DNA from: Chara braunii | Lineage: Eukaryota > Plantae > Charophyceae | Direction of reading: 5' to 3' | DNA length: 64,000 bases | Assembly (NCBI GenBank): GCA_003427395.1 | Contig: BFEA01000008.1 | Span: 2,543,157 to 2,607,156, forward strand | Part shown: piece after piece, positions 5,627 to 51,055 of the stretch | How the letters are laid out: every line of letters begins with the position of its first letter | Numbering within the stretch: the first letter of the stretch is position 1 | Notes under the pieces: generated by a model | Told to the model about the DNA's origin: nothing | The model's input: the letters and a program-made list of their open reading frames with translations, nothing else | The model's database searches: none | Position numbers and translations under genes: made by a program

Positions 5627-8500
5627 CTAGTTATCTAACAGTTCTATGGTGAATCGCCAGACATCGTCCTTGCGAGAGCCAAAATGTTTGAGTACTCTCA
5701 TGAAAAGTTCACATGGGAAGTCTTTCTTTGACAGTTCCCTTTTCAAAGTACTCACACGGCGAGGAATTTCGGACCTGATTGTAGTATTTTGTTCGATCCG
5801 ATGTAAGTAGTTGTTGATGACAACACTTTTCTGCTTCTTACAGCCCCAGGACAAGTATGATTGTCCGTTCTGGATTTGTAGCTCCCCGTCTGTCCATACA
5901 TTGTCTTCGTTCTTGAATAGTTGCAGGCAGCTAAGGTACGGGTACTTCTGCTTGGAGCGGACTTGGCATCCAAGGAATTCAAACGTTCTGGTCCCGTCGT
6001 CAGTGCGCTTGAGTGTGAGTGTTGCCGGATAGCAGACTTCAAATGCGGACAGCAATGCATCGCGCTTAGTTGTGCTCCTAGCTGCAATGGTAAGCGTGAC
6101 ATCATCTATCAGTCTGGTGTCGTGGATCAGTCGAGCATCGTTGCCAATCGCTTGAAGGAAAGAATACTCTGCATGGGCACATAGTATGCATGCAAGTGGT
6201 GGGATGGTGGTTTTTCCCATCGGGATCCCCACCAGTTGTTTCAGCAACACGCCAGTCGCGCATGTGTAGGTGTGTTCAAGCTCCAGATGTAGGAAGCACA
6301 ACATTGAATCGAACCCAAGATATCTCCAATGATCCGCACCGGTTGTCCTTCCAAAAGTAGCGCCCTTCCCTCTCGTATTCACCCTCACGTAGGTCCTCCC
6401 CTTCGATCGATGGTAACCAAACAGCCAGTCCAACGCTGTGCGAATATCGAAGTGCCGCAGGCGGCCAAACATCTCCTTAATATCATAGGAGACTGTTGTT
6501 ATAGTTGTTGTTCCCTTTTGCTTGAGTAGCTTCCCGTTCACCTCAGACAGTCTCCCTGCGAGGTCTGACACTGACATCAAGTTAAAGTGTCAGTTCTTCA
6601 GTAGTGTTCTCAGTGGATGGTCGAGACCCCGTGAGATAGCTCGTCCTGTCTGGATCATTGGCTCCATGTACGTGGGGCAGATCGGCCGGTACTTGTCCAG
6701 GTCCTTTTGCTTAGGTAATACATATGTCGATCTGAACCCTCCTCTCTTATCCCATCTGGCAAACTTGGTTAAGCCTTTCGCCGCTACCTCTTCCCTCACT
6801 TCTCTCAAAATCTCGCTCGCAGATACTTCCATCACTCCATACCCTGAGTTAAATCAGTTAAGCACAAACGTAGACATCATGGCCTTATAGTACACATACG
6901 GGCACATTGCAACAGTTTCACCGGGATTCCTGTCCAGGTGGGTCAGTACCAATCCTTCCAATTTCGACTTCAGGTCATGCACGTGGTGGGAGAGCAGATG
7001 CTCTCCTTTGGTTGCATACCTATCACTCAAACATTTAGTCAATATATCCGTGGAGAATGCCGACACTTTACACTTCCAGTTCTTACACTGCCTAAAGCCT
7101 TCGAACATCTCGCTCTGTAACAAACTCAGTCTGTCGTCACAGGGAACGCTCAGTACATTACGTGCGTTGTGCAAAAGTGGGTGTACACCCTCCATCTCAC
7201 TGATACAGAAGCGAACATGGCCCTCCGACCTGGGGAAGGGTAATCCTGCGCATTTGCAGGTGAGCACGTCACGGGTGGCGTACACCCGTTGATTGTGCAA
7301 CGTGTCCGCTATTGACGGGTTCTTCACCCATACAATGCGGACCTTTTTTCCCATCCTTTGTAAAAAACATCTAGGTAAGTTACCTTGCATCAACGCATCA
7401 TTCAACACCTTGCGCACCTCACCTACCTTAATCCTATCATCAAACTTCAATCGAAAAATCGGATCAGCTCCCATACACAGACCAAAACGAGAGCTAAAAA
7501 TTCTGGAGATAAGTCGACGCAAATACTTGCGAGTCACATTCCTGCTAAAGTCCTTAATCGCATTGTACAGTCGTAGCAGCGTTTTAATGTTTCACCTATA
7601 GCACTCATCAATCCTACCTGGGTTGCGTAAGATTCGAATTAGCACGGCTTTGAGGTATCTGCACTTCGGCTTCCACTTCCACCAGTGCACCACTTGAAAG
7701 ACACCCCCTCCTTCAAGATCGGGCTTCGCCTGCTTCAGTGCCTTGATCTTGTCGTCGCACTTCAGCTTCGTGTCGCCAAACGCCCTATTAATCTTCTTCC
7801 AACCTGGTTGCCAGATACTCCCTCCTTCCACGAAGATTTGCATGCCTTCCTGCCGTTCTATGCAGGCCGAGTCAAGAAGTTGATAGAAATCAACTCGCCA
7901 TGGCTCCACCGTAGAAAGCCGAAAACGTAGCGCTCTGTCGTCCGTAGCAGTGCTTCTTGTTTTCCCTTTGAGTTTCTCACGTTCTCTCCGTCCTGGTCTT
8001 GATTTCTTCTTCCCAGTACCTTGCTTCGCGCCGGATGTGTTTAGGAAAGGGCACCAACGACTGATGTACAATTTCTCCAGCTTCACCAGGTCCTGCCCTT
8101 CGATGTAATCTATAGGTAGCAATACATAGTTCTCACGGCCGTAGCTTAACAACCATCGATGTAAATGAGCAGGTTTCCTCGATTTGGTGACATATAAATG
8201 TTTGCGCCACCTTGTAATGACGTTACGTGAGGTCTTCCCTATGTACAACGATTTACAATATGGGGACAGCCCCACGAATACTGCATCCTTAAGGCGTAGG
8301 AAGTCGAATCTGTGTTTCTTGTACAGACGCAACCAATTACTGATACAACGTTGACTCCATCTAATCTCTCCCTCTAGTGATAGTCGAATCACAATGAGCT
8401 GCAGGATCTCTTCGAGCAGAGTATTCACTCCTTCAAACTCGCGTCGCAACTTAGTAAAGCATCTGTAGAGTTTCCACAGTATTGGAATCTCCCACCCTCC
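5627..8500 (-). pseudogene. PLE ORF2: GIY-YIG endonuclease plus reverse transcriptase, interrupted
   Basis: Fragments 7592-8449 (AVFVGLSPYCKSLYIGKT..R..H; LEKLYI..FLN), 6854-7537 (CKC..H, LDRNPG), 6590-6835 (KYRPI) and 5627-6580 (YDIKEMF, GIPMG, RLIDD, FLG). Confidence 0.88.
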
Positions 8501-9720
8501 TCATGCATCACGTTGCTCTTCCGGTGGTCCGCCTGAAGCACTGTCATCCACTGCGATAACCTCGGTGATGCCGGTGGAGTCTAAGTCGTACTTCTCTTTA
8601 GCCCGACTTTCAGCGGCAAAGATCGCATCGATCTTGCTGTCATACGAGACCCCCTCTTCCTTGCAGATGCGTTGCAGCTCGATCACGTCCATCATGCCGT
8701 CACGAAAGCGCAATCGTTGCAGCGCTCCCTTCGTTGTAGGTGTTGTGGCCGGCCCAGGTGTGCTTGGTGCCATATTCTTCTTCCGTCTGGCTGATAGAGG
8801 TGTCTTCACGGGTGATATCCGCTTGACAGATCCATGTGCCTTGACGATGGTCCTTGCTCTAGTCATGCGGCCAGTCAATTTGGTCGGCTTCAGAGCACCT
8901 TTCCTTGGCGTCCGCTTCGGTGGCAGCTCCATCGGTGGGCTATCATCAAATTCCGGCTCCTGTCCTCTATTCCTTTTCTCGGAGATACATAGATGCTCTG
9001 CTTGCGCGCTTTGTTCCTGCGTAACATTGGTGTCACTTTCTTCTTCCGATGCAGACGCACTCTCTGCAACGTATGTCACTTTCTTCTTACCGTGCCTGAT
9101 AATTTCCCTCAAGGGGCCGATAACGCTCTCCACTTGATGTGAAAAATTCTCCTCCATCTCGCTGAGCCGTATGGCGAGTTGGATGTCGTTGTCCTTCCTC
9201 ATTTCCTCCCGTCGTTGCGCCTCCAATTCCATCTCCTCTTTACACTTCTCCGCCTTCTTCTTAGCCTTCCTCTCGGCCTGTTCACATCCTGCCGCCTCGT
9301 GCTCCTCGGCCTCCTTCTTCTCTCGTTTCCTCTGCTCCTTTTCGTCTTTCTTCATCTTTGCTTCGTTGAAGAAGTCCGTCATGGCAGCGACGGATTTCCC
9401 CAATTTTTCAACCGTATCCTTGATGTCTCCTCCCTCCCTTGATGGTGATTCGTATCTCCTTAGGTGTTCGAATATTTGCGGCGCGCCCGACTGCCTGAAG
9501 TCTAAGGACGTGGAAGGACGGTCTAAGTGGTGACGCCGCCGATCTCTATCGGGGCACTGATTGGCACAGTGCCTAGGTTCGCCGCAGTTGAAGCATGTTG
9601 GTGGACGATAGTTCCTCCGGTCATACTCGCGACGCCCCTCCGTTCTTCATTATGTCTCTCGTTCTTACGGCGTGCATCGTTCCCTTACCGGTAGTCATCG
9701 CAATGCTCCGTGCCTAACAT
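8501..9720 (-). pseudogene. PLE-associated ORF1: CCHC zinc knuckle, charged coiled coil, possible SAP-like C-terminus
   Basis: Around 9553-9603 the minus strand encodes PTCFNCGEPRHCANQCP. ORF 8501-9403 is KE-rich and contains ELQRICKEEGVSYDSKIDAI near its end. Confidence 0.65.
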
Positions 9721-9830
9721 GGTGCTAGTTGATGAGATTCGAAGCGTCGGCTCAGAGGTCTCAGGTCTTCGGTCGAGCCTAAATGGTTCACTGCAATACA
9801 GCAGTCAGGTCGCTGTCCCTTCGACGACAC

Positions 9831-11092
9831 TGTGACGAACTAGCTTCTGTAATGCGCGACTTTCTGCGCGAAGTGCTAAGCGGGGTCCCACGTCGATTGG
9901 ACGGGTTGATGGAAAATTGCATGTGTGTCCTTGCTTTCTTCGTTGTTTCTTCGTTCGCACACGAGCCCCTGATGACAGTTGGGGACAATTCGGGAATGCA
10001 CGGGGAAAAGGGGGTGAAACTTGGTCGGATGGATGCGGAGTACGCGCCAAGTGCGCGATTAATAAACGTTGAAGTCGCTTCTTTTCTTTCGGTTCCCTTC
10101 TTTTAATTTTGTTTTGTTGAACTTTTGGGCGCGCAAACATCGCGTGGGAAGTTCGGTGTCTCTTTTTGAATTTCCTTCTTGAATTTTCGTTTCGAATCTT
10201 GGTCAGAGCCATACGGCCCTCGCAATTTTGATTTTCTTTTTCGGACCTTTTCATCGGCAGGCTAGCTAGGAATTTTGGAATTATGGAATTTCTGTTTTTC
10301 GGGGGCGCTGCTTTGCGTATTCGCGCGCTCTTTCTTGCTGCTGCGCCAGGACCTTGATTGATTGGCGCCTTAATCCTTTTGCAACTGTAATTTTGGGCGC
10401 ACACTTTTGTAACTGTATCTTTCTGTTTCTTGCTTCTTATTCTTCTCGCCTCCTTTCTTCCTCTCTCCCCTCCCTTGCTTGGTAGCCGCGTTTGCATGTT
10501 CGGATTGATGCGTGGAGTTGGGTACGTCCCCCACGCCGCGGCCCGACCGTGCAAACGTAAGCACTCCCTTTCTCTCATCTATCTACGTCCTTGTAATTCC
10601 GTGTTCTTCGCGCATGCATGCACACTATAAATTCCGGCTGCGCGATTAACCTTCTCTCTTAAGAGTTGCTGGAAGCTCGGGGTTGCGCGATTGAGAGGGT
10701 CGGCACACGAGCGAAGTAAGAGGTGAGTGAAGTGGGAGTCAGGCGACCTGACGAGCTGGTGCCGAATGCGCGGGGTTGACGCGGGCCACGACGGACTGTG
10801 GGCGCGGAGCGAACCTGACGGGCACAGGAGGACTAAGCGGGGTGACGGCTTCATGTGTTGATGCGCGACGACGGACTGTCGGCATCGGGGAGAGAGAGAG
10901 AGGAGAGAGAGTTGAAGTCGAAGATGGACATGGATTTACGCTTTTCTTTTCGGTCCATTTTTTATCTATGTATATAAATTTTGGTGTCGATTACGGGCAA
11001 CTCGCCCTTGTCTTTGCGGCCACATACTCGTCCTGTTGTTCGATTTGATTCTCTTTTTTTTTTTATCGATGCACCTTTGCATTTTCGTTTTT
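9831..11092 (+). repeat. Long direct repeat copy 1 (apparent LTR)
   Basis: Aligns with 19242-20504 at roughly 95% identity (hand count of about 60 differences). Confidence 0.95.
10002..10014 (+). promoter_or_regulatory. Polypurine-tract-like sequence inside the repeat
   Basis: GGGGAAAAGGGGG followed by TG; identical copy at 19412-19424. Confidence 0.5.
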
Positions 11093-11469
11093 GATCGTTT
11101 CCCTTCGAACCCTCGTGCATAATGAATGAGAATGGGGATTGCATGTTGGTGTGATCAGTAGAATGTGTTGGCTTGTCGAATCTTACGGGTAATCTGGAGC
11201 GCACCATTCGACGTGCCATATGGGCACCTGCAAGTGCGATCCGAATGGAGCGCGACGTATATATGTCCATACCACTCGGACTCGCCAATCGCGTCCTGAC
11301 TAACACCCGTAGTCAGCCCATCACTGAAGTAGGAGTCGACGTCAACCGGGATCGGGTTACCCATCACGCGTAAGTGCGCGTAAGTGCGACTTGTTCGCAT
11401 CTCTCTTACGCACTTACGAGCGGTGATCTCCCCGATTAACTTATCCCCCAAGGCGTGAGTGATGAAAGA

Positions 11470-11847
11470 ATGACGAGCTCACGGAGTTCCGACGTATCTT
11501 GGAATTCCGAGGATTACGAGTCGTATTTTAGGTACCGGGAAATCTGGGAAGAAGAGCAACTCCGATTGCGGGGAAATTTGAGAAACCCGGTGTTCCCCTG
11601 CCTCACGGAAAACGATAGATTTTGCGCTAGGGAATTCCATCTCGCCGTGCGAAGCGACCCACGGATACCCGACTACCCAAACACGTACAACACACAGTAT
11701 TTCATAACCCCCGGCTTCGTCCTTATCACCACTTATTTCCCGCCATACCACCTCCTCCTCCCCTATCATCAGCTTACGGTAGTACCGTGGAATCCCATAG
11801 CGCCTTATTGGCCCTTTCCCAGTGCTCTATTGCATCTCTGCCCCTGA
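11470..11847 (+). CDS. Accessory ORF upstream of the PBS and gag, unknown function (125 aa from the ATG at 11470)
   Basis: Uninterrupted, compositionally protein-like ORF (track 11455-11847); no recognised motif. Confidence 0.4.
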   Translation: MTSSRSSDVSWNSEDYESYFRYREIWEEEQLRLRGNLRNPVFPCLTENDRFCAREFHLAVRSDPRIPDYPNTYNTQYFITPGFVLITTYFPPYHLLLPYHQLTVVPWNPIAPYWPFPSALLHLCP

Positions 11848-11980
11848 ACTTGGCCACAGAAGATCCCAGTTCCGACCTGGGACTTCAACCCCCACTTTCC
11901 CAAAAATCCTTGGCACACCCCTCTTCGCACTTCCAGCCCCCCATCCCACTCCGATCAGGAAGTCGCATCGGGCGTAAGGT

Positions 11981-11993
11981 TGGTATCGGAGCC
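11981..11993 (+). promoter_or_regulatory. Primer binding site, tRNA-iMet type
   Basis: TGGTATCGGAGCC, one difference from the plant consensus TGGTATCAGAGCC, about 150 nt before the gag ATG. Confidence 0.8.
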
Positions 11994-12146
11994 CGACACG
12001 TGGCTAAGTGATAGGGTCTGTAGACCCAATATTGGCTAAGGCGAGGCAATCTAGCTCCACGTAGGCGCCCTTCAGCTGGGGATACACGCCGACGTAGTCC
12101 TGTAGTTACACGAAGCCGAACGTCCGCCACAAGGCGAGCAGGCGCC

Positions 12147-15100
12147 ATGGCTGCGGCCGCTGCTGCAGCAGCTGCTGCGGTGGTCAACCCCAACCAACAG
12201 CCTAACCCGCCTGCGCTGCCTGCACGAGCCCCTGCGGCTCCACCAGATCTTTATTTATTTGACCCAGCCCACCATCTCGCAGGAGCATGGTTAGCCACGC
12301 TTCGAGCTCAGCGGTATACGAACGATGAAGCTCAGATCAACATCCCCGCGCGGATGGGAGGGGACGCCCATCATTGGTATAGCACTTATGTATGGGTGGA
12401 TCTCCCCACATTCGAGCGGGATTTCATGAACCACTTCGATTATGTTCACCACGAACAAGCACTCTATATGATCAAGGATCGAGTCCAGAAACCACTCGAA
12501 TCCATTATCGAGTATCGGAACAGATTTCATCGAATGTTTGTAAAGACTGAGCGAGGCGAGCAGGTAGGCCGGGACCTGTTCATTGATGGACTACGTAACA
12601 GAACGATTCGGGGGAAGCTACGTAAAAACTTCTCTCCCATTAACCACATGCTGCAACAAATTATGGACGCTTCCGAAGAAATGGAGCGGAAGTTCGCAGC
12701 TAGCTTCTTAGAAAATGAGCATTATAATAGAGAAGGAGACTCGTCAGAACTTGTGAAAGCAAGGGCGGAACTGGCCGCACTGCAAAACAAATTCGAAAAC
12801 ATGGGATTCGTAGCTGGACCTGTTACGTATGTAGAACAGGTGACATCGAGGACCGCACCATGGGGAGCGACTGTAAACAACCAGATCCCGGTAATGGCGT
12901 CCCCAATCGTTACTCAGCCACCTCCACCGCCACCCACCATCGAGTCACCCGCAAGAGCGAATGAGTCTGCTGCTATCTTGGAGCTAACTAAAACATTGGT
13001 TAGTCTAATCCAAGAAAGCAAGAAGGAACAGCGAGAGCACAACGCCTGATTAGAAGCTATGATGCAGAATATGCGACCCGTTGCGGTGCGAGCACCAATG
13101 CAGGGAGGCATCGCGGCTGCACAAGTTGCAGCGGGGCCAGCCGGGACAGCGGCAAATGCATGTTTTACATGTCATCAACCGGGACACTTGGCCCGAGATT
13201 GCCCCCATCAGGCCATGCAGCCTCGTGCCGGGGTCGCGCCTGCAGCTGCAGCCCCCATACCTAACGGCCCGGGACGTGTAGGAGCCGTGATGGATGATCA
13301 GGGGGGGAGTAATGGAATGATGATTTTCAGTGAGGAAGCAGCCGAGCTTATCCCGCTGGAGCAGTATGTATCACTAGGATACCCGGGGCTGGGAATGATT
13401 GGGACAATCCGACCAGAACTCGAGTCCAGAGATGTCGCCGAATGGCGACCTTCGTCGAGCGAAATGGAGACGAGAGGCCCTACCTTTGTTACGGGGGAAA
13501 TCGATGTCCTTGATGTCACCCGAGCATTGGATCATCAAATCCCTCTCCCAATCGGCCACCTACTCTCCATTTCGGAACAGGCGAACGAACGTATGATGCA
13601 GCATTGCAAAGCGAACCGGAAGCGATTCGCCCTTGCACGCGCTCAGAAGGCCAAGGCGCCGACTTCGGAGAAAAAGGCGGACGTCGCCCTTGACCCCATC
13701 CGAGTCGGATTGATACAGAAAGATGAGCACTTTCTTCGGATCAAGCCGATTCCGTGGAAGTCAGCCGAATGTGATATTGAAGTCTGGGGAGTGCCGTATA
13801 GTGCGATCATAGATTCGAGAGCGGCTGTCCTAGCGATATCACTCCGAGTAGTCGAGAGAGCGGGTAGGAAGAATGATATGATTATGCTAACCGAGAAGGA
13901 CCATCTCGTATCGGTTGATGAGGAGAAGATCAAGACAGTAGGACGAATGACGAATGTCGCGTTCCGATTGGGAAAAGTGCATGCTTTAGGAGATGTTGTG
14001 GTGCTGGATGTGAATACGTATGACGTTTTTTTCGGGCTTCCTGCCTTGGTGGCGCCGCGTGCTAATTTAGACTTCGAATGCCGATCCGTCATTCTCCGAA
14101 ATACCGGGGGAAAACCATATGTAATACCCATGAGACTAACTCTTTGAACGCCGGTTAAGGTAGTACCCCGAATTTCTCCGCAAACAACGGGAGCGCTCTG
14201 CATGGTCTCCTGGAGTGCACCGGTTGACGGAGGCCAATCATCGAATGACGCGGGGAGCGACGACGATGACGATCCAGTCGTTACACGGTTAGTACGGCAG
14301 CAGATTCACTACCCGGCGCCTCGCACTATTGCGCGTACCATGCATCTAACCACATGGAATGCTCATATGATGATCATGGGAGAACCCCTCGTACAAATTT
14401 CGAGGCTGGTTGATTCCTTGGAACCCCCTCAGACCCTGTACGAAGGCGTATCTCCCCTTTTCCTTCGGTACTGTGACAAACGTTCCTTTTGTGATCTCAC
14501 TGGCTTACCTCGATCCCTGCTTCAGCCCGCAAAAGAGGTTCAGTTGTTGCGTCTGGGAGCCAAAGCAGGTTCTTTGGAACCCCCTCAGCGCACCGAGGCA
14601 AGATCCGATGAACTCGGGATCCAAATCTCGCCCAAAAGCGTGCCCTGGCGAGACATCTGCGACGGGATAACCCCCGAAGGTCATATAACGATCAGGGAAG
14701 AGGAAGCACAGATGGTGGCCACTGTGTTTTCTTGGAGATCGGATCACTCTTTTATATCTGCACCGCCTGACACTACTCGGCGTATACACACGAAGCAAGT
14801 TAATGTTCGGATTTTGGATCAAATGTATGAATTGCATGTGCCCCAGTATGTACCTGATGAGATCCATCGGCTGATCGCTGATATTTTAATAGAGTATCAA
14901 GGGGCGATTAGCATGTCCGATGCCGATATTGGGTTATCTGTGGTCGTTCAGCATGAGATTCAGACCGGGAATTATTCCCCGATCCACTGCAAGCCGTACC
15001 GATACTCGTTGACAGAGCGCAAGACGGCCTTGCAGCGAATCAGGGAATTTGAGGCAAACGGATGGATTGAGCCTGCCACCGGTTCCTGGTTGTTCCCAGT

Positions 15101-16391
15101 TGTATTGGTTCCTAAAAAGAACGGGTCGATCCGCATATGCATCGATTATCGAAAGCTAAATGATATTACGATTAAAGATGTGTATCCCCTTCCCCGGATT
15201 GATGATCTGCTTGATGTGATCGGGTGTGCTAACTACTTCAGCAAGTTCGACATTCGGCATGGGTTTCATCATATCTTGGTGAAAGAAGAAGATCGGCCCA
15301 AGACCGCCTTCGTTTTGTTTGAAGGCACGTGGCAGTGGGTTCGGTGCCCGATGGGAATCTGCAATGCGCCTGCCATGTTTCTGAGGGCGATGAACGTGAC
15401 TTTTCAGAATTTCGTCAATAAGACACAGCTGACTCAGGGGATGATTAACTTTTGCGTCATTGTGTATATGGATGACATTCTGGTGTACTCGGACACGTTT
15501 CACGGACACGCGCAACACATCGAATGAACGTTGGGTGCGTTGAGAGACGCAGGTTTCAAGATTGCGCTGGAAAAGAGCGAGTTTTTCCTCTCGGAAATCT
15601 CGTTCTTGGGGTATGTGGTGACACGAGGAGGCCTGCGGCCGGACTCTCGAAAAGTCGTGGCGGTCAAAGAGGCCCCGGTTCCGACCTCACTGACGCAGGT
15701 TCGAGCCTTCTTGGGCCTGGCCTCATATTACCGGCGGTTCATCAAGGGGTTCGCGGCTATAGCAAGGCCTCTGACAAACCTGCTGCGAAAAGAACAGCCC
15801 CTTTATTGGGATGACGAGTGCGACCAGGCCTTCGGGGCCCTGAAGGATGCTCTCGTCACGACCCCGATTCTGATTCGCCCGGACCCCTCTCGACAGTTTA
15901 TTCTCATTACCGACTGGCAGCCGGAGGCTATCTCGGCCATTTCGGCACAGAAGGGAAACGATGGGAAGGAGCATGTCATCGAGTACGCTTCCTGGACGGT
16001 GCCTGACGAGCGACGAAATAATTCCGCGCCACAAGGAGAATGCTATGCGGTAGTGTGGGGTATCCAGCACTTCCATCCGTATTTGTACGGTCAAAAGTTT
16101 ATGCTCCTCACCGACCATGAACCTTTGTTGGCTCTGAAAAAGCTAACCAACTACACGGGCACGATCGGACGATGGGCAGTGCGGTTGCAAGAGTATGAGT
16201 TTGACATTGTTCACCGAAGAACGAAGAGACACGGCAATGCCGACGGACTGACACGTTTGCACCGACCCGGTAAAGTACCAAAGGCGGAAGAAATCACACC
16301 GTGGAAGGACCCGAACCTCAATAACGGTCCAAAGTACGGAGAAGTCGTGGTCATTCCACGTGGCAAGAAGCCGGTGAAGGGCAATGGGTGA
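12147..16391 (+). pseudogene. gag-protease-RT-RNase H polyprotein in one frame with three premature stops
   Basis: ORFs 12147, 13059, 14202 and 15531 share a frame. Motifs: CFTCHQPGHLARDC knuckle, IIDSRA protease, IDYRKLN, YPLPRIDD, YMDD, LITDW, TDHEPL, NADGLTR. Confidence 0.95.
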
Positions 16392-18088
16392 CGGAGGTAA
16401 TGTCCAAAATCCCTCTTTTTCTTCCCCATCCTCTTCTTTCGCCTCCCTTCCTGACAAATTTTGTTGTTTCTGCGAGGCAATCTCTCGAGTCTATTCCGTC
16501 CACATGTGTCCTAAAGGGAGGGGATATGTTGAATGGGTAGACTGTCGGAAATGTGTCGCACGTGCTCATGGTGCGTGCATACAGTATCAGAGTAGTGATA
16601 AACCCTGGTTTTGTCCCTTATGTCACCCTGACAAGATTCCGACGGAAGCCCGATTCCTCGATGCCACGTCGTAAGGCCCTGACAAAATTCAAAAATTTAG
16701 AAGAGCGGAAGTCTGGACAGATGTCGCCTTGATAGCCACAGTGGTAGGGAACTCCCTCGAAACCTTCTCCAAGGAGGATCGAAGGAGGGCCAATGAAAGA
16801 GCACGGGATTACCGATGGGTGGACGGACGGTTAGAAAAGCGTAAAACAGACGGCAACTGGGCATGGTTAGTAGTTCCGCACCCGTTTATGTGGTACGACT
16901 GGGTACGGACAGCCCACGAGGAGACGGCGGCGCATTTTGCCGCTCGTATTACCGAAGCTGCGATTGATAGAAATCAATGGTACTGGTCCAATATCTGGGA
17001 TGACGTTAAATTCATCGTCTAACACTGCCAGGTCTGCGCTGCTGACAAGGCCCCAACCCAACCGCCTAGGTCGAGAGTCCCAACGGTGGCTGAACGGCCG
17101 TTTCAGAGGGTTAGTATGGATACTACTGATATAGGGGTGCCCCCCGGACCGAATAGTTGCGACTGTTCAATTCTGCTGGTTTTCGTTGACCACTTTTCTA
17201 AGTGGATCGAGGCCTACCCCTGCAAGACACGACAAGCCGTGGAAATCGCGCGGTACGTCAACCGTTTTCGAGGCATGCACCAGGACACCGAAGAGATCCT
17301 GACCGACAATGGGGTCGAATTTAGAGGAGAAGTCGAGAGGAACCTGGTCATACACGGTGTCTCCATACGGCACACGGCCCCGCACATGTCCCAGTCTAAC
17401 GGATTAGTGGAAAACGCGAATAGGGTGATAAAAACGACCTTGCGGTGGAATTACGTGACCCCCGACCCTGGCCTGATATTGTCGACCACATCTTGGCGAT
17501 CCATCGCAGAACGCCCCACGAATCGACGGGCCTAAGCCCCTTCCAGTTGCGGACCAATAGTGTTGCGTGTGTGTCGATATCGAGCCTCCCCGACGAATCA
17601 GGTCTCAAACGACGCCTTACAAGGGCCACCGCTCGGGACAAAGCCAAAAGGCACCTGGAACTTATGGAGCGGTCCCTACCTAGACTGGCCCGGAAGCGAC
17701 AACGGTCCACCAATTGGCCCATGGCCGACAGGTCCGGAGTTACGAGGCCTGGAACGGGAATGCGGGTCCCAGGACCCAGTATAAGTTAGGGGACATCGTG
17801 CAGGTAAGGAAATGTGCGCGCCAGGGTAAACTAGCGCCACGATTCTTCGGACAGTATCGAGTGATTGAACTCGGACCCAACGGCGTGGACACCGTGCGCC
17901 TNGCTCCNGAGGTTTCCGNCAGTCNATCGGCTCGCCCGATCACACGCCACGTGTCCTATCTCCGTCTTCTTCCCTCTGTTCCGTCTCCTTCTCCATCAAC
18001 CTCTGTCGACGACGACTCTATCTCCGCTGCATCTCCTTCTCCTTCTCAATCTCTGTTGGATACGCCGTCACCATCGCCGTCGCCATGA
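16384..18088 (+). pseudogene. PHD finger plus DDE integrase (stops and frameshifts)
   Basis: ORFs 16384, 16729 and 17086 share a frame. PHD-like CCFC..WVDCRKC....HGAC..WFCPLC; HHCC (AHEETAAH..HCQVC); catalytic VSMD, LTDNG, GLVE; GPY/F-like KLAPRFFGQYRV. Confidence 0.9.
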
Positions 18089-18561
18089 GCTTTATGGAGG
18101 AGAGAGCTCTAAGTGAAGAAGTGTTGGTAGCACGTGGGAATTTGACACTGCGGCAGGTATATCATCCTCGTCTTAGTCCGGACCTTCAGCGGCTTGCGCA
18201 ATTCTTCTGCTCGAGGGGCGTCTACGAGGCAGCAGAGATCCACGTCGACGGGAGGGCTGACGCGATCATATTGGCCGAAGCTGTCGGGTTGCGGCAGCGA
18301 GCATCTGCGGGCGTCGGCCGGATAACGGTGGTAGTTAATTTCAGTGGAGATCTCACGGCGATCCCCCCCTGCCGACACACGAGAATCAAGGTGGCGTTGC
18401 TGTTGTGGGTGCACAATCTTCAGAACGAGTGGACCCAGCTCCTGGCGCACCAAGGGGACGTGATCACACCAATCCGAGCGATCGAATACAACGGCCTTTG
18501 GCTGGATCGACGTGACCTGCCGACGCAATTACCCCCTCTCATCCCCTTCCATCCCCGATGA
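18085..18561 (+). CDS. Accessory ORF3 (158 aa), unknown function
   Basis: Intact ORF whose ATG overlaps the integrase-region stop (ATGA). Confidence 0.6.
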   Translation: MSFMEERALSEEVLVARGNLTLRQVYHPRLSPDLQRLAQFFCSRGVYEAAEIHVDGRADAIILAEAVGLRQRASAGVGRITVVVNFSGDLTAIPPCRHTRIKVALLLWVHNLQNEWTQLLAHQGDVITPIRAIEYNGLWLDRRDLPTQLPPLIPFHPR

Positions 18562-19074
18562 GCTCCTTCCCGATCTCTACTTTCGAGCTTCCTTCTTCCT
18601 CCCCCACCTTTTGGCAATCTGATCTTCATCCCCGCCTCTCCTTCTGCATTCCCCCGCGACACTTTTCGTCATTACTTCTCCATCCGTCTCTCTGTCACAG
18701 TCCATCCCCATTCATCCTCCCAGCGTGCTTCCCCTGAGTTCCCTCTCCATGTACTTCTTTTTAGCGTAGGATGGCGTCGTATCAACGCCATAGAGGTTTA
18801 TTGCCTCATCACGGGGTTAATCCCCGCATGCGCCGACTGCGATCGCTTTCGCGCGGCGCTTCTTAGAACCTTCACCACTCTCTATCCCGACTACCTCGCT
18901 TCTCTCCCCACTACTGGCCGCCGATTTCCCCGCTTCCATAGAATCGTCCATCATTGGAGCCTTCTGGAAACGGACGATGAGCTGGAACGTTTCCTCCCGC
19001 CTATCCCAACTCATCCCCCATCAACACCTTTGCCTGCCTATCGTCTTCCTTTTCCTCTTCCCCACGTCGAGTGA
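18558..19074 (+). pseudogene. Accessory ORF4 or ORF3 continuation (about 170 codons), probable paralog of ORF3
   Basis: The ORF3 frame stays open from 18562 to the TGA at 19072-19074 (..RINAIEVYCLITGLIPACADCDRFRAALLR..ELERFLPPIPTHP..). An ATG overlaps the ORF3 stop at 18558. Confidence 0.5.
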
Positions 19075-19241
19075 CAACGACCAGGATACGACTGTCGCGC
19101 AGCATGACTTCCACACTCGTTCGCACGGTATGCGGCAGAAAAGAAGATCAATCATCCACGGCCAATCAATTGAAGATGATCGACACGTCAGCTAGCAAGC
19201 AGGAGCTTGCTTACCTTTGGAACCCCACTGGGCGTCACATA

Positions 19242-20504
19242 TGTGACGAACTAGCTTCATAATGCGCGACTTTATGCGCGAAGTGCTAAGCGGGGTCCCA
19301 CGTCGATTGGACGGGTTGATGGAAAATTGCATGTGTGTCCTTGCTTTCTTCGTTGTTTCTTCGTTCGCAAACGAGCCCCTGATGACAGTTGGGGACAATT
19401 CGGGAATGCACGGGGAAAAGGGGGTGAAACTTGGTCGGATGGATGCGGAGTGCGCGCCGAGTGCGCGATTAATAAACGTTGACGTCGCTTCTTTTCTTTT
19501 GTTTCCCTTCTTTTAATTTTGTTTTGTCGAACTTTTGGGCACGCAGACATCGCGCGGGAAGTTCGGTGTCTCTTTTTTAATTTCCTTCTTGAATTTTCGT
19601 TTCGAATCTTGGTCGGAGCCATACGGCCCTCAGAATTTTGATTTTCTTTTTCAGACCTTTTCATCGGCAGGCTAGCTAGGAATTTTGGAATTTTGGAATT
19701 TCTGTTTTTCGGGGGCGCTGCTTTGCGTGTTCGCGCTCTCTTTCTTGCTGCTGCGCCAGGACCTTGATTGATTGGCGCCTTAATCCTTTTGCAACTGTAA
19801 TTTTGGGCGCACACTTTTGTAACTGTATCTTTCTTTTTCTTGCTTCTTATTCTTCCCGCTTCCTTTCTTCCTCTCTCCCCTCCCTTGCTTGGTAGCCGTG
19901 TTTGCATGTTCGGATCGATGTGTGGAGTTGGGTACGTCCCCCACGCTACGGCCCGACCGTGCAAACGTAAGCACTCCCTTTCTCCCATCTATCTACGTCC
20001 TTGTAATTCCATGTTCTTCGCGCATGCATGCACGATATAAATTCCGACTGCGCGATTAACCTTCTCTCTTAACAGTTGCTGAAAGCTCGGGGTTGCGCGA
20101 TCGAGAGGGTCGGCACACGGGCGAAGTAAGAGGTGAGTGAAGTGGGAGTCGGGCGACCCGAGGAGCTGGTGCCGAATGCACGAGGTTGACGAGGGCCATG
20201 ACGGACTGTGGGCCTGGAGCGAACCTGACGGGCGCAGGAGGACTAAGCGGGGTGATGGCTTCATGTGTTGATGCGCGACGATGGACTGTCGGCATCGGGG
20301 AGAGAGAGAGAGAGGAGAGAAAGTTGAAGTCGAAGATGGACATGGATTTGCGTTTTTCTTTTCGGTCATTTTTTTATCTATGTATATAAATTTTGGTGTC
20401 GATTACGGGCAACTCGCCCTTATCTTTGCGGCCATATACTCGTCCTGTTGTTCAATTTGATTCTCTTTTTTTTTGTATCGATGCACCTTTGCATTTTCGT
20501 TTTT
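19242..20504 (+). repeat. Long direct repeat copy 2 (3' LTR or start of a tandem second unit), truncated
   Basis: Matches 9831-11092, then switches abruptly to LINE RT sequence. Confidence 0.95.
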
Positions 20505-23500
20505 CGGCCTAGGAGTAACTACCCTGCTATATAAGAAAGGTGACAAGGACAACATAAGGAACTATAGACCCATCACCCTCCTTCCAGTCCCCTACAAGAT
20601 GGTTGCTAAAGTTCTGACTAAAAGGCTGTCGCCTGTCATGAATATGCTCATTCACCCGGACCAAACGGGGTTCATGCCCAATCGAACGTTTAGGATAATA
20701 TCCTGCTCGTCAACGAAACCATCAAATATGCCCGCCAAAGAAGAGTCCAAGTGGCGATCCTCTTCATAGACTTTGAAAAGGCATATGACCATGTTGACTG
20801 GGACTTTCTTGATATGTGCCTTCTCAAAATGAACTTCGGTCCGACTTTCTGCCAATGGGTACAACTCCTGTACAGATCAGCCACGACAAACATAATGCTA
20901 AACGGTCATCTCTCTCCACCGATTCGCCTCCACAGATCGGTGCGCCAAGGAGACCCCATTGCGCCGCTGCTGTTTGTTATTGTCATGGAGGCCCTGGCGT
21001 CAATGATCAGAGCGCACCCTGGTATCAGCAAAGTGCCTATTCTTGACCTGCCACATCACCTCATACCGGTGACATCACTCTTTGCGGATGATCTCACGGT
21101 GCTGATAAGCGCTGACTCGGACAGTATCCAAGCACTCACCCATGTCATTCACCTCTTCTCGCTTGCAGCAGACATGACGGTCAACTGGGATCTAAGACGG
21201 AGGGCTGGTGGCTTCACCCTCACGGACAACTTCCTCCACCCCAGCCGAGTGTAGCTTGGGCCCGCAAAGAAGATGCTATTAGGATACTGGGGGTCCGATT
21301 GACTGCGATGCGTCCCCCACCGGATCATGGGGACATGTTAGTCAACATGGCCATAGATCGACTGGCCAACTGGGAGGGGCTGCATACATCGCTGGTGGGG
21401 CGTGCTCTTGCAATTAATAGTGGTGTTCTGGCGGCTATCTGGTATAAACTGGCAGTCTGGCCGTTGAACAAACAGCAATACGCAAGACTGAAGAGAGCCC
21501 TCACGACACACCTATGGAAGAACAGCGCTAAAACTCAAGGCTGCCTCAACAGAGTAAAGTGGGACGTGCTGACGCAACCTATATCCAAAGGCGGATTGGG
21601 GATCTTGGACCCGGAGAGACAGGCTGAGGCGCTCATTTTTAAAGTCCTCGTCCGCCTCCTCATAGGGAATGACATTCCTTGGAAGCAGCTCGCCTGCCTT
21701 CAGATAACCAACCTGGCTCCCCAAAATGAGGCTCCGGGAAGGGTCCACCCGTTCCAATGGTTGACAAATGGCCATTGGACTATTCCAGGGCCTCCCAAAC
21801 AGTTGCATCAGCCGCACCCGCCTGACCCGTCCTATGATACAAAGAGGGACATAATGGCGGATCCGCTCTGGCCCTTTATGATTAAACTTTGGCGACGGCG
21901 GGGCCCCCGACAAAAACACCCTCCGTGCAGATGGCATGATATATGGAGACAACCCCTCTTTGGTAACCCACATATCCTGCAAGAATCGGGCCTGCCCTTC
22001 CCCCTGACAACCAACTCTCCCTGGCTGACCTAGGCCAAGAAAGGAGTGTTCATGGTTGGAGACTTGTGGGACCCAGTGGGGGGGGACTGGGCGACCCCTG
22101 CTCAATTACAGCACAAACTCACGTACGCCAAAAACGTCGAAGAAAGGGCTAGCCTGCTAAGAGAGGCCCTCCCCATTGCCTGGCATCTCACCCTTAGGGA
22201 GGGCCCAACAGTCCGCCGGGATGACTGGGTCGTCAGGTACTTGGACGCGCCAACCCACCTGGTCATATTTCGTGTGAAGGAAAACAATCACGGGAACTGC
22301 CAACTGGAAGCCTACGAACCACAATTGTCGGGGGCCACGCTCACCAAACTGGTTAGAAATGACAGCCTGGACACCACAGGAACATGGGCGGGACTGATAC
22401 AGGTTAGGGTGGTGGGGGACCGGGAAAGTGGATACTTTGCATATGAGACCTCCACTCCTGTGGCCAACCTCCCATTTGACCCGGCTGAATGGGAGTGGCC
22501 GNGGTCCAAACCGATGTCAATATGGAACTANACAGTCAAAGGTGGGTACCGAGTATCTCGACAAACAATGCCGATNAGCCAAACGCTCGCGAACAGATGG
22601 GAGCGTGACTCGCCGCTGGACCACAAGCTGACACAAGCATTTGACTGGNCCAGGTACGCAAGAATCATGCCAACAAACCACAGATCTCTCCNGTGGCAGA
22701 TCCTCCACCGCTGCCTCCCCACCCCCGACTGGATAGTGTCCAGGACTAACCTGGAGCAGCAAGGCAAGGTATCCCCAATCTGCGCATACTGTGTTAACAC
22801 ACCGGCCAGGGCGACTCTTGAGCATTGTCTCCTGGCCTGTCCAATGGTAACCCAACTATGGCGATGGTGGGATGCGGCTTTCCACGCCCTCACAGGTCAT
22901 CACATACCTTGGGACATAGGCCTGTTACTGCTCGGGAAGAATTGTAACCTGCTGGCCCGCTGGTCTCCGTTTGCGTCTAATCTTTTTTCATACACAAGAC
23001 TGAACATTCTTACGCTGGCTTGGAGAGCGAGATGCTCCTTCGAAAGGAAGGACCATCAATTTGGGCTGATGCAGGCTCAACAAGCGGTGGAAGAACAGAT
23101 TAGAACTAACACTCACGAAGCCTGGAAGGCTATGAAGCGGGATCTTCTGGAGGAAAAAGATCCTCCTGCCAGAGAGGTTATCCGACAAGCCTATATGCTC
23201 ACTTGGCAAGACCCTGGTAAATTGTTCTCAGAACTAGATATCGACCTTCGTATTACGTGGAAACCCTGGAGGAATGCGGAACCTGGCTGGCAGAGGAAAC
23301 CCCTTACCGACTTCCAGGTCCCTTACCTCCAACCCAACTTTGTGCTGCTCCCTCCCACAGGACCGATTGCCCAGGCGCACCATCTCTCCCAGCCTGTTCT
23401 GCCAAGCTCGTCGCTTCCCTCCCGTGCGCAGCCTCCCACCCCTGCACTCGCCCTGCCGCCTGCACCTGCACTTACACTTCACATCACTTGATTTCCACCT

Positions 23501-24300
23501 ACCTGCCTCTTGCTGACTGCGTTTGGCAGGCGGGCCCAGAGGGGATGTTGGAGGGACTGGCAATGGAAGACTGGAAGTGACGGAGCAATAATTCTCGAGA
23601 GGTCGCTACATGCCCGAATGAGCCGAGACTGTGGACGAACAGGGCAGCCTCATCATAAGGCGATGGCGTTGGGCTGCTGCTCTCACTCCCCTGCCCTGTC
23701 AGGTGGATGATCTGGGCAATGACAATCAGCAACAAGCCAGGTTCAGCCATGGATGGAAGCAGGGACTTGCATGAAGGATAACGGAAACGAATAGGTGGCG
23801 AAGACTGAGCAGCAGGGCATGCAGGGATCCAGAAGGGTAGCAGAGGATCGAAGAGCAGAAGGGTAAAAGGGATCTAAGCTTCTAAAGGCTGAAGGGTAAA
23901 GGGGTTTTAAGGATCCAAAGCCCAAAGGTTTTCGGAAGCACTGTGTTTTGTTTACGGTGAAAGGGGGGCTGCTGAGTATGGCTGTCCGAGGATGTAATGG
24001 GTGCCCCAACAGGGATTGGGAATCGTGTCAGCTCCGAGGGACTAAGGGGACACAGAGGGACATGGATACACATACAGCCATCTCAATTTTGTATGCTAAA
24101 ATTTTGTGTTCAAGATTGTATATATGGGATGCTGGACCCAGTTTCCAGCAGGTGTCGCTCCCCACCAATAGATGGAGCAGCCCGGACGACAAGCCCTCGA
24201 TTCTGATGGTTCTCTTACCACCATCAGGATGGAGAGCTTACACAAGGGCTATTTGTCAAAAAAAAAAAACAAAAAAAAAAAAAGAAAAAAAAAAAAGAAA
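20505..24300 (+). mobile_element. 5'-truncated LINE (L1/Tx1-like): decayed ORF2, 3' UTR and poly(A)
   Basis: LYKKGDK..NYRPITLL, DFEKAYD, RQGDPIAPLLF, FADD, GGLGI, C-terminal CAYC..EHCLLAC; A-rich tail at about 24258-24300. Confidence 0.92.
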
Positions 24301-29259: not shown

Positions 29260-29548
29260 TAACCACCATTTCGTCAAAATGGACTTTTTTTTTGTTTTTT
29301 TGAACGAAATTGAAACCGAGTTTTTTTTTGCCCGAAAACTCGTCCAAATTTGCTGCTCCTGAGGGTCCGGCATTCCCTCCTGGATGTATCTGGTCTCAAG
29401 CTGAGTCCATTTACATCCAGGGGGTCCAGCATTTTAAGAACGCCGAACCCTCAGGAGCAGCAAATTGGATGAGTTCTCGGCCAAGAAACTCGGTCTCAAT
29501 TTTGTTCAAATAAATAAAAAAATGTCCATTTTGACGAAATGGCAGTTA
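29260..29548. mobile_element. MITE with long TIRs (family also at 39948-40290)
   Basis: taaccaccatttcgtcaaaatggac ... gtccattttgacgaaatggcagtta; inverted similarity extends over about 100 bp. Confidence 0.88.
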
Positions 29549-39940: not shown

Positions 39941-41379
39941 ATGCCGTAACGACCATTTTGTCAAAATGGACATTTTTTATTTTTTGAACGAAATTGAAAC
40001 TGAGTTTTTTGGCCGAAAACTCGTCAAAATTTGTTGTTCCTGAGGGTCCAGCGTTTTAAAAACGCTGGACCCCTGGCTGTACATGTACCTAGCTTGAGAC
40101 CAGGCACCTCCAGGCAGGACTGCCTAAAGGTACCTGGTCTCAAGCTAGGTCCATGTACAACCAGGGGGTCCTGCGTTTTACAAACGCCGGACCCTCAGGA
40201 ACAACAAATTTTAATGAGTTTTCGGCCAAAAAACTCGGTTTCAATTTCGTTCAAAAAATAAAAGATGTCCATTTTGACGAAATGGCAGTTCCGTGAGGGC
40301 AGGCGAGGGCATTCAAGGACGCCGGGGAAGACGAAAATCACAAGGCACAGAAGAAGTGTTGTGTGTACAAGTACATCCGCGTGGGTCAGAGTCTCGGCAA
40401 GAAGTTCCGTGGGAACCGCATGTTGAAGTGTCTGTTCTGCGGCCATGAGATCCAAAGAAACCATATGTGGCGGCACGCCATTTCAGGCAGGGAAAAGGGT
40501 GTCCGTCAGTGACCGCCGAGGCGCTGGTGGACATACATTACACCTCGGACTACAAGTTGGAGGGCAAGATCCTTGACCGGATGCTTCGGTTCGAGGAGCT
40601 TCACGGTCCAGCACCTGCGATGGATCCGCGCCAGGACGAGGGAGGGGCGGGACAGGCGAGGAGGGACGAGGAGGTGGTCAACGTTGACAACATTGAGGAC
40701 GAGGGTGCACGGGCTGGGCCATCGTCGAGGGACCAAGGGAAGGGCGTTGTTCACGAGCTGAGGGGCCAGCAAGGCCGATACTTCCAGGGTGCGCACGTAT
40801 CGGCTAGCACTCAGGCGCACCGCGATGCAGAAGACGACGCGGATCCTTTGGGGAAGAGAAAGAAGAGAGAGAAAGGGGCGAGGCAGGGTGGGAAAAAGCG
40901 GATGAGACAAAACACCATCACGAAGTCCTACTCTTTGCAATGGCAGTTGGAGTTAAAGAAGAAGTTCTTGAGGTTTGTCTACAGTCAACGTTTGTCGTTC
41001 AATGTATTCCGTAGCGAGTCGTGGAAGGACTTGGTCAAACACTTCAGGGACTTGCTGGGGCCGGTGAAGGTTTTGTAGTCGTCGCACAACGAGATCGCCG
41101 ACATAGAGATGGTTGTCCGCACAGCAGACGATGTGGCAGGTAATCTCGCAGAGGTCAGGGCTCCTTTCTATGTCACGGGGGCTACCATCATGTCAGACGG
41201 CAGGAAATCACGGGATGCTAGACCGATCTTTAACTTCCTTGTCGGCGGGTCGCGCAAAGTGATGATGGTGAGGACGATGAACAAGGAGGGTGAGCGGGAC
41301 CAGGCGCCTGATGTTTTGGCACGTTGGATCAAGGTGTTCGATGACTTCCCTCCTCGGTGGGTGAATGTCATCTGCACGG
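39941..41379 (+). pseudogene. hAT-family transposase (BED-type zinc finger plus DUF659-like core), interrupted by a MITE and truncated by an insertion
   Basis: LKCLFCGH..ARHF..GC finger; FVYSQRLSFNVFRS; GATIMSDG..RPIFNFL; ends at NVICT. GAACG-rich repeats at 38400-39030 resemble a subterminal region. Confidence 0.85.
39948..40290. mobile_element. MITE inserted just after the hAT start codon
   Basis: Same TIR family as 29260-29548; flanked by CCGT on both sides. Confidence 0.88.
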
Positions 41380-49580: not shown

Positions 49581-50234
49581 TNTCGGTTGCTTTTGTTAAT
49601 TTTGAAACATCACAAGTGCGGAAAGGGCCAAAGAGTAAGGAAAGAAAAGGGGCATTGGAGAGGAGAAAGACGTTGTCACTGCACGATGACNCCTGCCTCC
49701 TCCATCCTTCCCCTATCCTTGTTTTGAGTTGATCCTCTCCAAGTACCTGTCTCTTTGACTGTGATTGGATGATGGCGTGTTTTGGTAAGGCAATATTGGC
49801 CTCTGCTAACCTTAACTACCGACAATTAGTTGCATAGTCCATACATCTCCAAATACAGTGCGATTGCGGGAGCTCTGCCGGAGTTCAGAAGGGACTCTGG
49901 ATGGAGGGAACCATGAGGTACGCATGACTATCCCCTTCCCATATACCTTTACAGGCTACGCCCTTCTATTGGACTGCTTGTATGATTGCATGATATATTG
50001 CTTGTACTTTCTTAAGGACTGAGACAATCAGAAGGGAAAAAGGATATATGATTGGAATAAGAATCTTGCCTGATGAGATGGAAGGAACCTAAATTAACTA
50101 AGGAGGAACCTAGACTGTTTGGACGAGAAGAATGAAGTAGGGCAATGGAGGTTCATGTGTGAGTCGTCGTGCTACTTGGGCATGCACTGACTTGACTAAG
50201 GGTTGACAATTAGGTACTCATGTGTGAGTCACCT

Positions 50235-51055
50235 TGCTCTCTGTCTGTCCGACTGTGGTCGTGATGGGAAGGGGGTCCTAATAATAACCTATAAACTAAT
50301 CTAAGTACTCTCAACCTGATCGGCTGTCGTCGTGAGGGGACGAGGGTACAAACAACTACTTACAAACTAATCTAAGTACTATCCGCCTGATCGGCAGTCG
50401 TCGTGAGGGGACGAGGGTAGAAACGACTACTTACGAACTAATCAAAGTGCTCTCTACCAGATCGGCTGTCGTTGTGATGGGATGAGGGTAAAATAAAAGT
50501 ATTTATAAGCTAGTCTTAAGTACTCTCTACCGGATCGACTGTCGTCGTGATGGGACGAGGGTACAAACAAAATACTTATAAGCAAATTTAAGTACTCTCT
50601 ACCTGAGTGGCTCGTGAGGCGGCGAAGGTACGAACAATAACTTATGAACTAATCTAAGTACTCTCTACCTGAGCGGCTGTCGTCGTGAGGGGACGACGGT
50701 ACAAACAACTACTTATGAACTAACCTACGTACTCTCTACCGAATCGACTTTCGCCGTGATGGGAGGAGGGTACTAACGATAACTTATAAAATAAAGTAGG
50801 TACTCTTTACCGTAACGACTCTCGTCGTGTCTGGAAGGGGGTATCTAACTATAACTTATAAACTAAATAGGGGCTCTCTCTCGGATCGACTGTCGTCAAG
50901 ATGGGACGAGGGTACAAACCCAAACTTACGAACTAATATAAGTACTCTCTACCGGATCGGATGTCGTCGTGAGGGACGGTACAAGCAAAATACTTATGAA
51001 CTAAAATAGGTACTCTTTACCGAATCGACTGTCGTTGTGACGGGAAGAGGGGTCT
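50235..51055. repeat. Tandem array of about 12 units of about 71 bp, each with a hairpin
   Basis: Approximate consensus gtactctctaccggatcgactgtcgtcgtgatgggacgagggtac-aaacaa.tacttatgaactaatctaa. Confidence 0.95.

What the first reader, a model, noticed from the sequence alone, without database searches (positions are those of the whole stretch)
16384..16674. PHD finger placed N-terminal to a gypsy integrase
Seen: the C4-H-C3 pattern CCFC..EWVDCRKCVARAHGAC..WFCPLC lies between RNase H and the HHCC domain, in the integrase frame, and no chromodomain follows the GPY/F motif. Established: PHD fingers read histone H3 tails, and chromoviruses target chromatin with a C-terminal chromodomain. Inference: an alternative chromatin-reading module for insertion targeting.
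Basis: partly seen in the sequence, partly recalled or inferred. Interest (0 to 1): 0.72.

Follow-up and report, generated by a model that had tools for sequence, protein, structure and literature searches.

The report
Separately encoded PHD-led gypsy integrase
A family of jumping genes in a stonewort-type alga carries a divergent PHD zinc finger at the front of its integrase, and that integrase sits in its own reading frame whose start codon overlaps the stop of the gene before it, so it is likely made as a separate protein that the finger may help tether to chromatin.

Summary
The C4-H-C3 finger is real (16462-16623), lies between RNase H and the HHCC domain in the integrase frame, and no chromodomain follows. 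It is a family trait: the finger is covered by many divergent copies, its second half is kept in a 53%-identical Chara family, and a 34%-identical relative has it too. PHD-bearing gypsy Pol is already known (Chlamydomonas Gypsy-7a_cRei, same targeting idea), and five unnamed relatives carry RH-PHD-HHCC-rve in one chain. Two things differ here. (1) PHD-integrase is not in the RNase H frame: its ATG (16384) overlaps the RNase H stop (16389-91), other copies keep this junction without indels, and none of 16 Chara gene models with both parts reads across it. Integrase is therefore likely a separate protein made by stop-restart translation (a +1 frameshift is the rival). (2) The finger lacks the H3K4me3 cage tryptophan and the acidic patch of unmodified-H3 readers and is net basic, so histone-mark reading is doubtful. 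This copy is dead. Verdict: new variant of a known kind.

The parts
9831..11092 (+). Left direct repeat (begins TGTGACG); may extend to the primer-binding site near 11980
   Evidence: 95.2% identical over 1264 nt to 19242-20504; start motif
11981..11993 (+). Primer-binding site of the tRNA-iMet type (type recalled from memory)
   Evidence: motif position
12147..16391 (+). ORF1: Gag, zinc knuckle, protease, RT, RNase H in one frame; three in-frame stops in this copy (13047, 14145, 15525)
   Evidence: ORF list; Pfam Retrotrans_gag, zf-CCHC, RVT_1, RT_RNaseH; ATG context
16384..16391 (+). Start/stop overlap ATG-GG-TGA: ATG of the PHD-integrase frame 5 nt before the RNase H stop, frame offset +1
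   Evidence: no listed variant in 16376-16391 and no indel in other copies, gap-free bridging contigs
16462..16623 (+). Divergent C4-H-C3 PHD-type zinc finger, residues 27-80 of ORF2
16672..16674 (+). In-frame stop peculiar to this copy (a second one at 17020-17022)
   Evidence: Chara models read through
16903..17037 (+). Integrase HHCC zinc-binding domain
   Evidence: Pfam Integrase_H2C2 E=0.012 on the broken ORF; above cut-off in 7 of 8 related models
17092..17385 (+). Integrase catalytic core (rve); frame breaks follow near 17440 and 17700-17790
   Evidence: Pfam rve E=1.3e-9; frames
17777..18088 (+). GPY/F-like motif with SH3-like module, then a Ser/Pro-rich tail and stop; no chromodomain
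   Evidence: Pfam MLVIN_C, SH3_Tf2-1 weak; matches to Chara models
18085..19074 (+). ORF3 of unknown family; its ATG overlaps the integrase stop (ATGA); one in-frame stop at 18559
   Evidence: 37-47% identity to four Chara models; no Pfam, Atlas best 0.83
19233..19248 (.). 16-nt palindrome joining an LTR-like end (CGTCACA) to the start of the right repeat
19242..20504 (+). Right direct repeat, cut at 20504 by a LINE-like RT sequence

Best explanation
The segment is a divergent C4-H-C3 PHD-type zinc finger that opens a second reading frame, PHD-integrase, whose ATG overlaps the RNase H stop codon in a Chara-type Ty3/gypsy retrotransposon family; the integrase is likely made as its own protein by stop-and-restart translation, and the finger likely helps tether it to chromatin, though probably not by reading methylated H3K4. 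Steps: (1, shown) finger, position, frame offset and overlap. (2, shown) they are shared by other copies. (3, inferred from trees and domain order) the finger descends from the PHD that relatives carry between RNase H and integrase in a single polyprotein; the split fell in front of it, so it belongs to the integrase. (4, inferred) ribosomes that stop after RNase H restart at the overlapping ATG, giving less integrase than RT; ORF3 would be made the same way at ATGA. (5, inferred) the finger keeps its zinc ligands but has turned basic, so it would contact DNA, the nucleosome surface or a partner protein rather than a methyl mark.
For: Pattern unique, 0 of 60 shuffles. Atlas: 10 of the ten best hits with a family share the PHD family or clan, top score 0.91. 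Alignment-based model: all 48 listed Foldseek rows are PHD or PHD-bearing chains. All 30 bins of 16150-17100 covered in X1, X2, X4, mostly by contigs under 95% identical (987 of 1168 in X1). No listed change alters a zinc ligand; 7 of 14 listed changes in the finger are silent, expected 0.26, p=0.05. Second Chara family keeps C3, C4, H5, C6, W, C7, C8 in frame with integrase. Junction: no variant listed in 16376-16391 and no indel at 15% (1 row hidden); gap-free bridges 16353-16500 (X3) and 16311-16449 (X2); a soil-metagenome contig end shows the same overlap with different upstream letters; 31 RNA reads of other copies in X8, no joint. 0 of 16 Chara models with RNase H and integrase read across the junction, and none of 36 holds ORF2 residues 1-53. 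P0096 (34%) is a PHD-integrase without RNase H, finger at residue 27, finger-to-HHCC spacing 97 against 98 here, sister to the Chara integrases at 0.999. All three ATGs have a purine at -3. RNase H tree puts Chara in a 24-leaf clade (0.968) with all 11 PHD-bearing hits that were kept in that tree.
Against: Pfam PHD is below cut-off; a profile of 11 canonical element PHDs does not score the finger (-0.1 bits; 135 of 500 shuffles as high), so descent from them is not shown by sequence. The single-sequence model found no PHD; the alignment-based model was fed canonical PHDs, is weak (pLDDT 61.5) and no match reached E 0.001 or Z above 2.6. Runs X1-X4 are one sample; X5 does not cover the finger itself. 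Low-depth contig joints skip part or all of the finger, the letters between not known. No DNA of the second family or of P0096 was seen: gene models may skip the junction for other reasons and P0096 may begin at a contig edge. No UGGGA motif (recalled TURBS core) and no unusual RNA fold at the junction. The ORF3 ATG is seen in this copy only; model P0058 has another residue there. No binding or targeting datum exists.
Confidence: 0.55

Rival explanations
1. Same finger and same conserved junction, but a programmed +1 ribosomal frameshift at or before the stop (GGG-UGA-C) makes a full Gag-Pol-PHD-IN polyprotein at low frequency; the ATG is incidental.
For: The offset is +1 and a slip at the last sense codon stays compatible with the sequence; the second frame is open further upstream in many copies (variant at 16375 in 252 of 449 depth units); it would solve packaging of integrase; five relatives have one chain. 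Shifty-stop frameshifting exists in eukaryotes (PMC5009743 passages).
Against: ATG in good context and no listed variant at its letters; a second start/stop overlap at ORF3; P0096 has Met residues before its finger; no stimulatory structure after the stop (z -0.75).
Confidence: 0.25
2. The finger is a genuine histone H3 tail reader that targets insertion.
For: PHD fold and a Trp three residues before Cys3; canonical relatives resemble unmodified-H3 readers such as WSTF, KDM5 PHD1, UHRF1, PHF21A; Gypsy-7a_cRei inserts 2.6 times more often between genes than expected.
Against: Arg stands where SHPRH has Trp two before the His, Lys in the second family, Val in P0096; no acidic cluster before Cys1; 7 K/R against 4 D/E, whereas four of five canonical relatives are net acidic; criteria from PMC3241642.
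Confidence: 0.2
3. The finger works in packaging: because integrase is no longer part of Gag-Pol, the basic finger binds the element's RNA or Gag and brings integrase into the particle.
For: Loss of reader residues and the stand-alone ORF coincide in the Chara/P0096 branch; basic charge.
Against: Two data points only; no binding evidence; P0096's independence from RNase H is unverified.
Confidence: 0.15
4. The frame offset is an old mutation amplified in a non-autonomous subfamily, and the finger is a decaying relic.
For: This copy is dead; the silent-site excess in the finger is only marginal (p=0.05); copies laid are limited to 80% likeness.
Against: Integrase downstream is under selection (12 of 17 listed changes silent, p=0.00025); ligands kept in a 53% family and a 34% relative; models of the second family also never cross the junction.
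Confidence: 0.1

Closest known systems
Gypsy-7a_cRei of Chlamydomonas reinhardtii (PMC9940879; section 13 and Fig. 6 legend read, figure not seen)
   Same: Gypsy element with a PHD finger; legend lists RT, RH, PHD, INT in that order; LTR in subparts; targeting already proposed.
   Different: There the PHD is inside the Gag-Pol polyprotein; here it heads a separate frame and is degenerate. Sequence kinship not tested.
KnitGypsy-Dnmt3 of Klebsormidium nitens (PMC5890265, passages)
   Same: Charophyte gypsy with an accessory chromatin domain in Pol and DIRS-like repeats; DNMT-bearing proteins are the sister group in the RNase H tree.
   Different: No methyltransferase here; those relatives put the PHD after the integrase; the paper has no mention of PHD.
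Chromoviruses (REXdb, PMC6317226, passages and Additional file 5)
   Same: Ty3/gypsy with a chromatin-type domain attached to integrase.
   Different: Chromodomain at the C-terminus; absent here. Listed two-ORF layouts split after GAG or GAG-PROT, never between RH and INT.
Termination-reinitiation in caliciviruses, influenza B and the non-LTR element SART1 (PMC10275272, passages)
   Same: Out-of-frame start and stop within 20 nt, sharing or nearly sharing letters.
   Different: Not described there for an LTR-element integrase; no TURBS-like motif found here.
REM1 of Chlamydomonas (paper not held; content recalled) and Ginger1-9_HM (PMC2836005, passages)
   Same: PHD finger in a gypsy or gypsy-integrase-related element.
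   Different: REM1: in an antisense ORF (recalled); Ginger1: at the C-terminus of a DNA transposase.

Membership tests
Ty3/gypsy LTR retrotransposon | Domain order Gag-PR-RT-RH-INT | tested here: met
Ty3/gypsy LTR retrotransposon | Primer-binding site before gag | tested here: met
   11981, (tRNA type recalled)
Ty3/gypsy LTR retrotransposon | Two complete TG..CA LTRs, target-site duplication, polypurine tract | tested here: inconclusive
   95% direct repeats start TG, right one cut by a LINE; no purine tract directly before it; palindrome instead
Chromovirus | Chromodomain at the integrase C-terminus | tested here: not met
Chromovirus | RT/RH/INT group with named chromovirus references | not tested
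   no named reference set in the trees (REXdb FASTA too large)
PHD finger | C4-H-C3 ligands, aromatic residue two before Cys7 | tested here: met
PHD finger | Pfam PF00628 at gathering score | tested here: not met
   14.2 of 24 bits
PHD finger | Cross-brace PHD fold | tested here: inconclusive
   PHD rows dominate but E above 0.1 and Z at most 2.6; model fed with PHD rows; single-sequence model no match
H3K4me3-reading PHD | Invariable cage tryptophan | tested here: not met
   Arg aligned to the Trp of SHPRH; criterion; position in other readers recalled
Unmodified-H3K4-reading PHD | Acidic cluster before Cys1 | tested here: not met
   one Asp in the six residues before Cys1, net basic finger; criterion
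Any histone-reading PHD | Binding to H3 tail | not testable with these tools
   needs peptide array or ITC
Gypsy-7a_cRei-like PHD elements | PHD between RNase H and integrase | tested here: met
   order in Gypsy-7a taken from a legend
Gypsy-7a_cRei-like PHD elements | PHD inside one Gag-Pol polyprotein | tested here: not met
   frame offset and stop shared by copies
KnitGypsy-Dnmt3-like | Cytosine methyltransferase in Pol | tested here: not met
   no such Pfam hit in the element's ORFs
KnitGypsy-Dnmt3-like | DIRS-like split direct repeats | tested here: inconclusive
   repeat-internal-palindrome-repeat seen; the last part is lost to the LINE insertion
TURBS-type termination-reinitiation | Out-of-frame start within 20 nt of the stop | tested here: met
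TURBS-type termination-reinitiation | 18S-complementary motif upstream | tested here: not met
   no UGGGA (motif recalled) in the 110 nt before either stop

The most novel reading that the evidence does not exclude
A streptophyte gypsy lineage has broken Pol between RNase H and integrase and runs as a three-cistron mRNA by stop-restart translation; its stand-alone integrase uses a repurposed, basic PHD finger in place of both polyprotein packaging and a chromodomain.
Probability: 0.3. Interest if true: 0.75.

Novelty: new variant of a known kind. Interest (0 to 1): 0.52.

Why it matters
LTR retrotransposons normally make integrase as the tail of Pol, which fixes its amount and carries it into the particle. 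A family that encodes PHD-integrase apart needs another way to translate and package it, and offers a short, testable eukaryotic reinitiation or frameshift signal. It also shows that a PHD can ride at the integrase N-terminus in a broad, poorly catalogued algal-type clade, explains why Chara gene models miss the finger, and warns that the finger need not be a methyl-lysine reader.

Tried and rejected
No whole genome is held, so copies were seen only through laid contigs and gene models. Finger alone against longer proteins: 0 of 31 candidates scored. Metagenome scan gave 8 distant integrase loci, none with the finger pattern; viral contigs gave none. Single-sequence fold: no PHD match. No Rfam family in 7000-24000. 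No unusual fold at either junction. No RNA holder was listed in the run index; X7 laid 0 reads and X9 one: no test of expression level. X5 has no cover over the finger (no evidence of absence). Splicing across the junction: no joint in 31 reads, low power. Paper searches for a split between RNase H and integrase gave 0 papers, 0 for REXdb+algae+PHD and 23 listings none on point by title and abstract; subscription journals, Repbase and Craig's thesis are not covered. REM1 and the Sanchez and Zhou review are not held. PMC3286476 was irrelevant. RING was considered: His is the fifth ligand, which fits PHD. A lone sequencing or copy-specific frameshift was rejected. In one search P0011 and P0059 'reach 287' only by alignment overshoot into integrase residues (sequences). 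Trees left out 20 of 185 and 37 of 184 proteins with short matches and are midpoint-rooted FastTree runs; the wide integrase clade has only 0.778 support.

Full report
Observation. The stretch 16384-16674 is a 96-codon ORF from an ATG to a TAA. It holds eight ligands in C4-H-C3 order with a Trp two before Cys7. The pattern occurs once in six frames of the window and in 0 of 60 shuffles. Pfam PHD is the best family but below cut-off (E=0.047); the Atlas gives PHD clusters at 0.91; the nearest solved sequences are the SHPRH PHD, ATRX ADD and ZMYND11, all at E above 0.5. A single-sequence model matched nothing. A model from an 8-row alignment that included canonical PHDs (pLDDT 61.5) returned PHD or PHD-bearing chains in 48 of 48 listed Foldseek rows and 26 of 29 VIA rows, none significant (that KDM7A, p300/CBP, ZMYND11 and ATRX hold such a finger is partly recalled). 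It is a PHD-type finger, but a divergent one.

The element. Gag, knuckle, protease, RT and RNase H lie in one frame from 12147 to 16391, then HHCC, rve and a GPY/F-SH3-like tail; no chromodomain. Direct repeats of 1264 nt, 95% identical, flank it; the right one is cut by a LINE-like RT. A primer-binding site lies at 11981 and a palindrome at 19233-19248. The closest proteins are all Chara braunii models: 15 of 52 hits and 21 of 29, in two families at about 80% and about 55% identity. This copy is dead, with several stops and frame breaks.

Family trait. Contigs of runs X1, X2 and X4 (one sample) cover all 30 bins of 16150-17100, and 987 of 1168 laid contigs of X1 are under 95% identical, so they are other copies. 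The stops at 16672 and 17020 are peculiar to this copy. None of the listed differences alters a zinc ligand; the non-ligand second Cys is the one that differs in nearly all copies; 7 of 14 listed changes in the finger are silent (p=0.05) and 12 of 17 downstream (p=0.00025) (tables were cut, 101 rows hidden and 1). The second family keeps the last six ligands in frame with integrase. Against this: X5 does not cover the finger and a few low-depth joints skip it.

The split. The RNase H frame ends at 16389-16391; the PHD-integrase frame is offset by +1 and has an ATG at 16384. One search lists no variant in 16376-16391 and no indel at the 15% level, while 16317-16375 carries 16 listed variants; contigs bridge the junction without gaps (X3 16353-16500, X2 16311-16449); one bridging contig has two gaps at unknown places. 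Divergent contigs stop matching at 16356 and 16400, leaving the junction as a conserved island, and a soil-metagenome contig end shows the same overlap. Thirty-one RNA reads of other copies in X8 cover 28 of 29 bins, in both orientations, without a joint. Of 36 Chara models, 16 have an RNase H-frame part before integrase and none crosses the junction; five touch the finger ORF, never before residue 54. The integrase stop at 18086-18088 overlaps the ATG of a third ORF that has relatives in four models, although that ATG is seen only here.

Relatives. A search of all representatives with P0004 gave 140 new proteins; 13 carry the finger pattern, 5 of them between RNase H and integrase in one chain with canonical Pfam PHD scores, 7 after the integrase, and one, P0096, as a PHD-integrase without RNase H. 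P0096 is sister to the Chara integrases (0.999), has an equally degenerate finger and the same spacing to HHCC. In the RNase H tree the window groups with the PHD- and methyltransferase-bearing proteins (0.947, 0.968). These records are unnamed. A profile of the 11 canonical fingers does not score the Chara finger, so descent is inferred from position and trees only.

Function. By the criteria of PMC3241642 (passages) H3K4me3 readers have an invariable cage Trp and unmodified-H3K4 readers an acidic cluster before Cys1. The finger has Arg at the Trp position, one Asp before Cys1, and 7 K/R against 4 D/E, whereas four of five canonical relatives are net acidic and resemble unmodified-H3 readers. 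I therefore put mark reading at about 0.2 and a looser chromatin, DNA or partner contact higher. For expression I put stop-restart at about 0.55, a +1 frameshift at 0.25-0.3, the rest on splicing or an amplified mutation. No TURBS core and no special fold were found.

What is known. PMC9940879 (section 13 read whole; figure and supplement not seen) describes Gypsy-7a_cRei with a PHD in Gag-Pol, a legend order RT-RH-PHD-INT, intergenic bias and the targeting idea. PMC8557442, PMC6673714, PMC2836005 and 10.1101/2021.11.30.470311 (passages) call PHD a common accessory of transposons. PMC5890265 (passages) gives the charophyte gypsy with DIRS-like repeats. PMC6317226 (passages and Additional file 5) has no PHD mention and no RH/INT split among prevailing layouts; its large supplements could not be read and may hold such cases. 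PMC10275272 and PMC5009743 (passages) give the recoding background. Searches found no paper on a split between RNase H and integrase. Earlier AI notes of this scan report such splits in other gypsy groups and permuted repeats in algal ones; they are leads, not support.

Verdict. Observation confirmed; interpretation partly supported. The PHD-integrase pairing is a known kind; the stand-alone frame with a start/stop overlap and a degenerate basic finger make this a new variant. Interest 0.52.

Noticed in passing
window 19233-19248 with repeats 9831-11092 and 19242-20504: An LTR-like end abuts the start of the right repeat as a perfect 16-nt palindrome, and the left repeat is not closed by CA before the primer-binding site; fits a permuted (split) repeat layout, last part lost to a LINE.
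   Followed up: partly
window 18085-19074 (+): Third ORF of unknown family, conserved at 37-47% in Chara models, with a probable counterpart after integrase in the second family; no Pfam or Atlas family.
   Followed up: partly
window 7592-9646 (-): ORFs with a CCHC knuckle and a GIY-YIG-like motif (seen by eye, no Pfam hit) into which the gypsy seems to be inserted; possibly a Penelope-like element of the Chlamys type.
   Followed up: partly
window 20461-23491 (+): Decayed LINE-like RT and C-terminal cysteine motif that truncates the right repeat.
   Followed up: partly
window 11470-11847 (+): 125-codon ORF upstream of the primer-binding site, no Pfam hit and no match in fetched models.
   Followed up: partly
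proteins P0122, P0138 (Dam) and P0151, P0152, P0169, P0193, P0197 (cytosine methyltransferase): The sister clade carries DNA methyltransferases in Pol, with the PHD before or after integrase: the RH-INT slot is a hot spot for accessory domains.
   Followed up: partly
window 50188-51071: Tandem array of about 71-nt units; long inverted repeats at 29260-29548 and 39945-40293 are related to each other.
   Followed up: no
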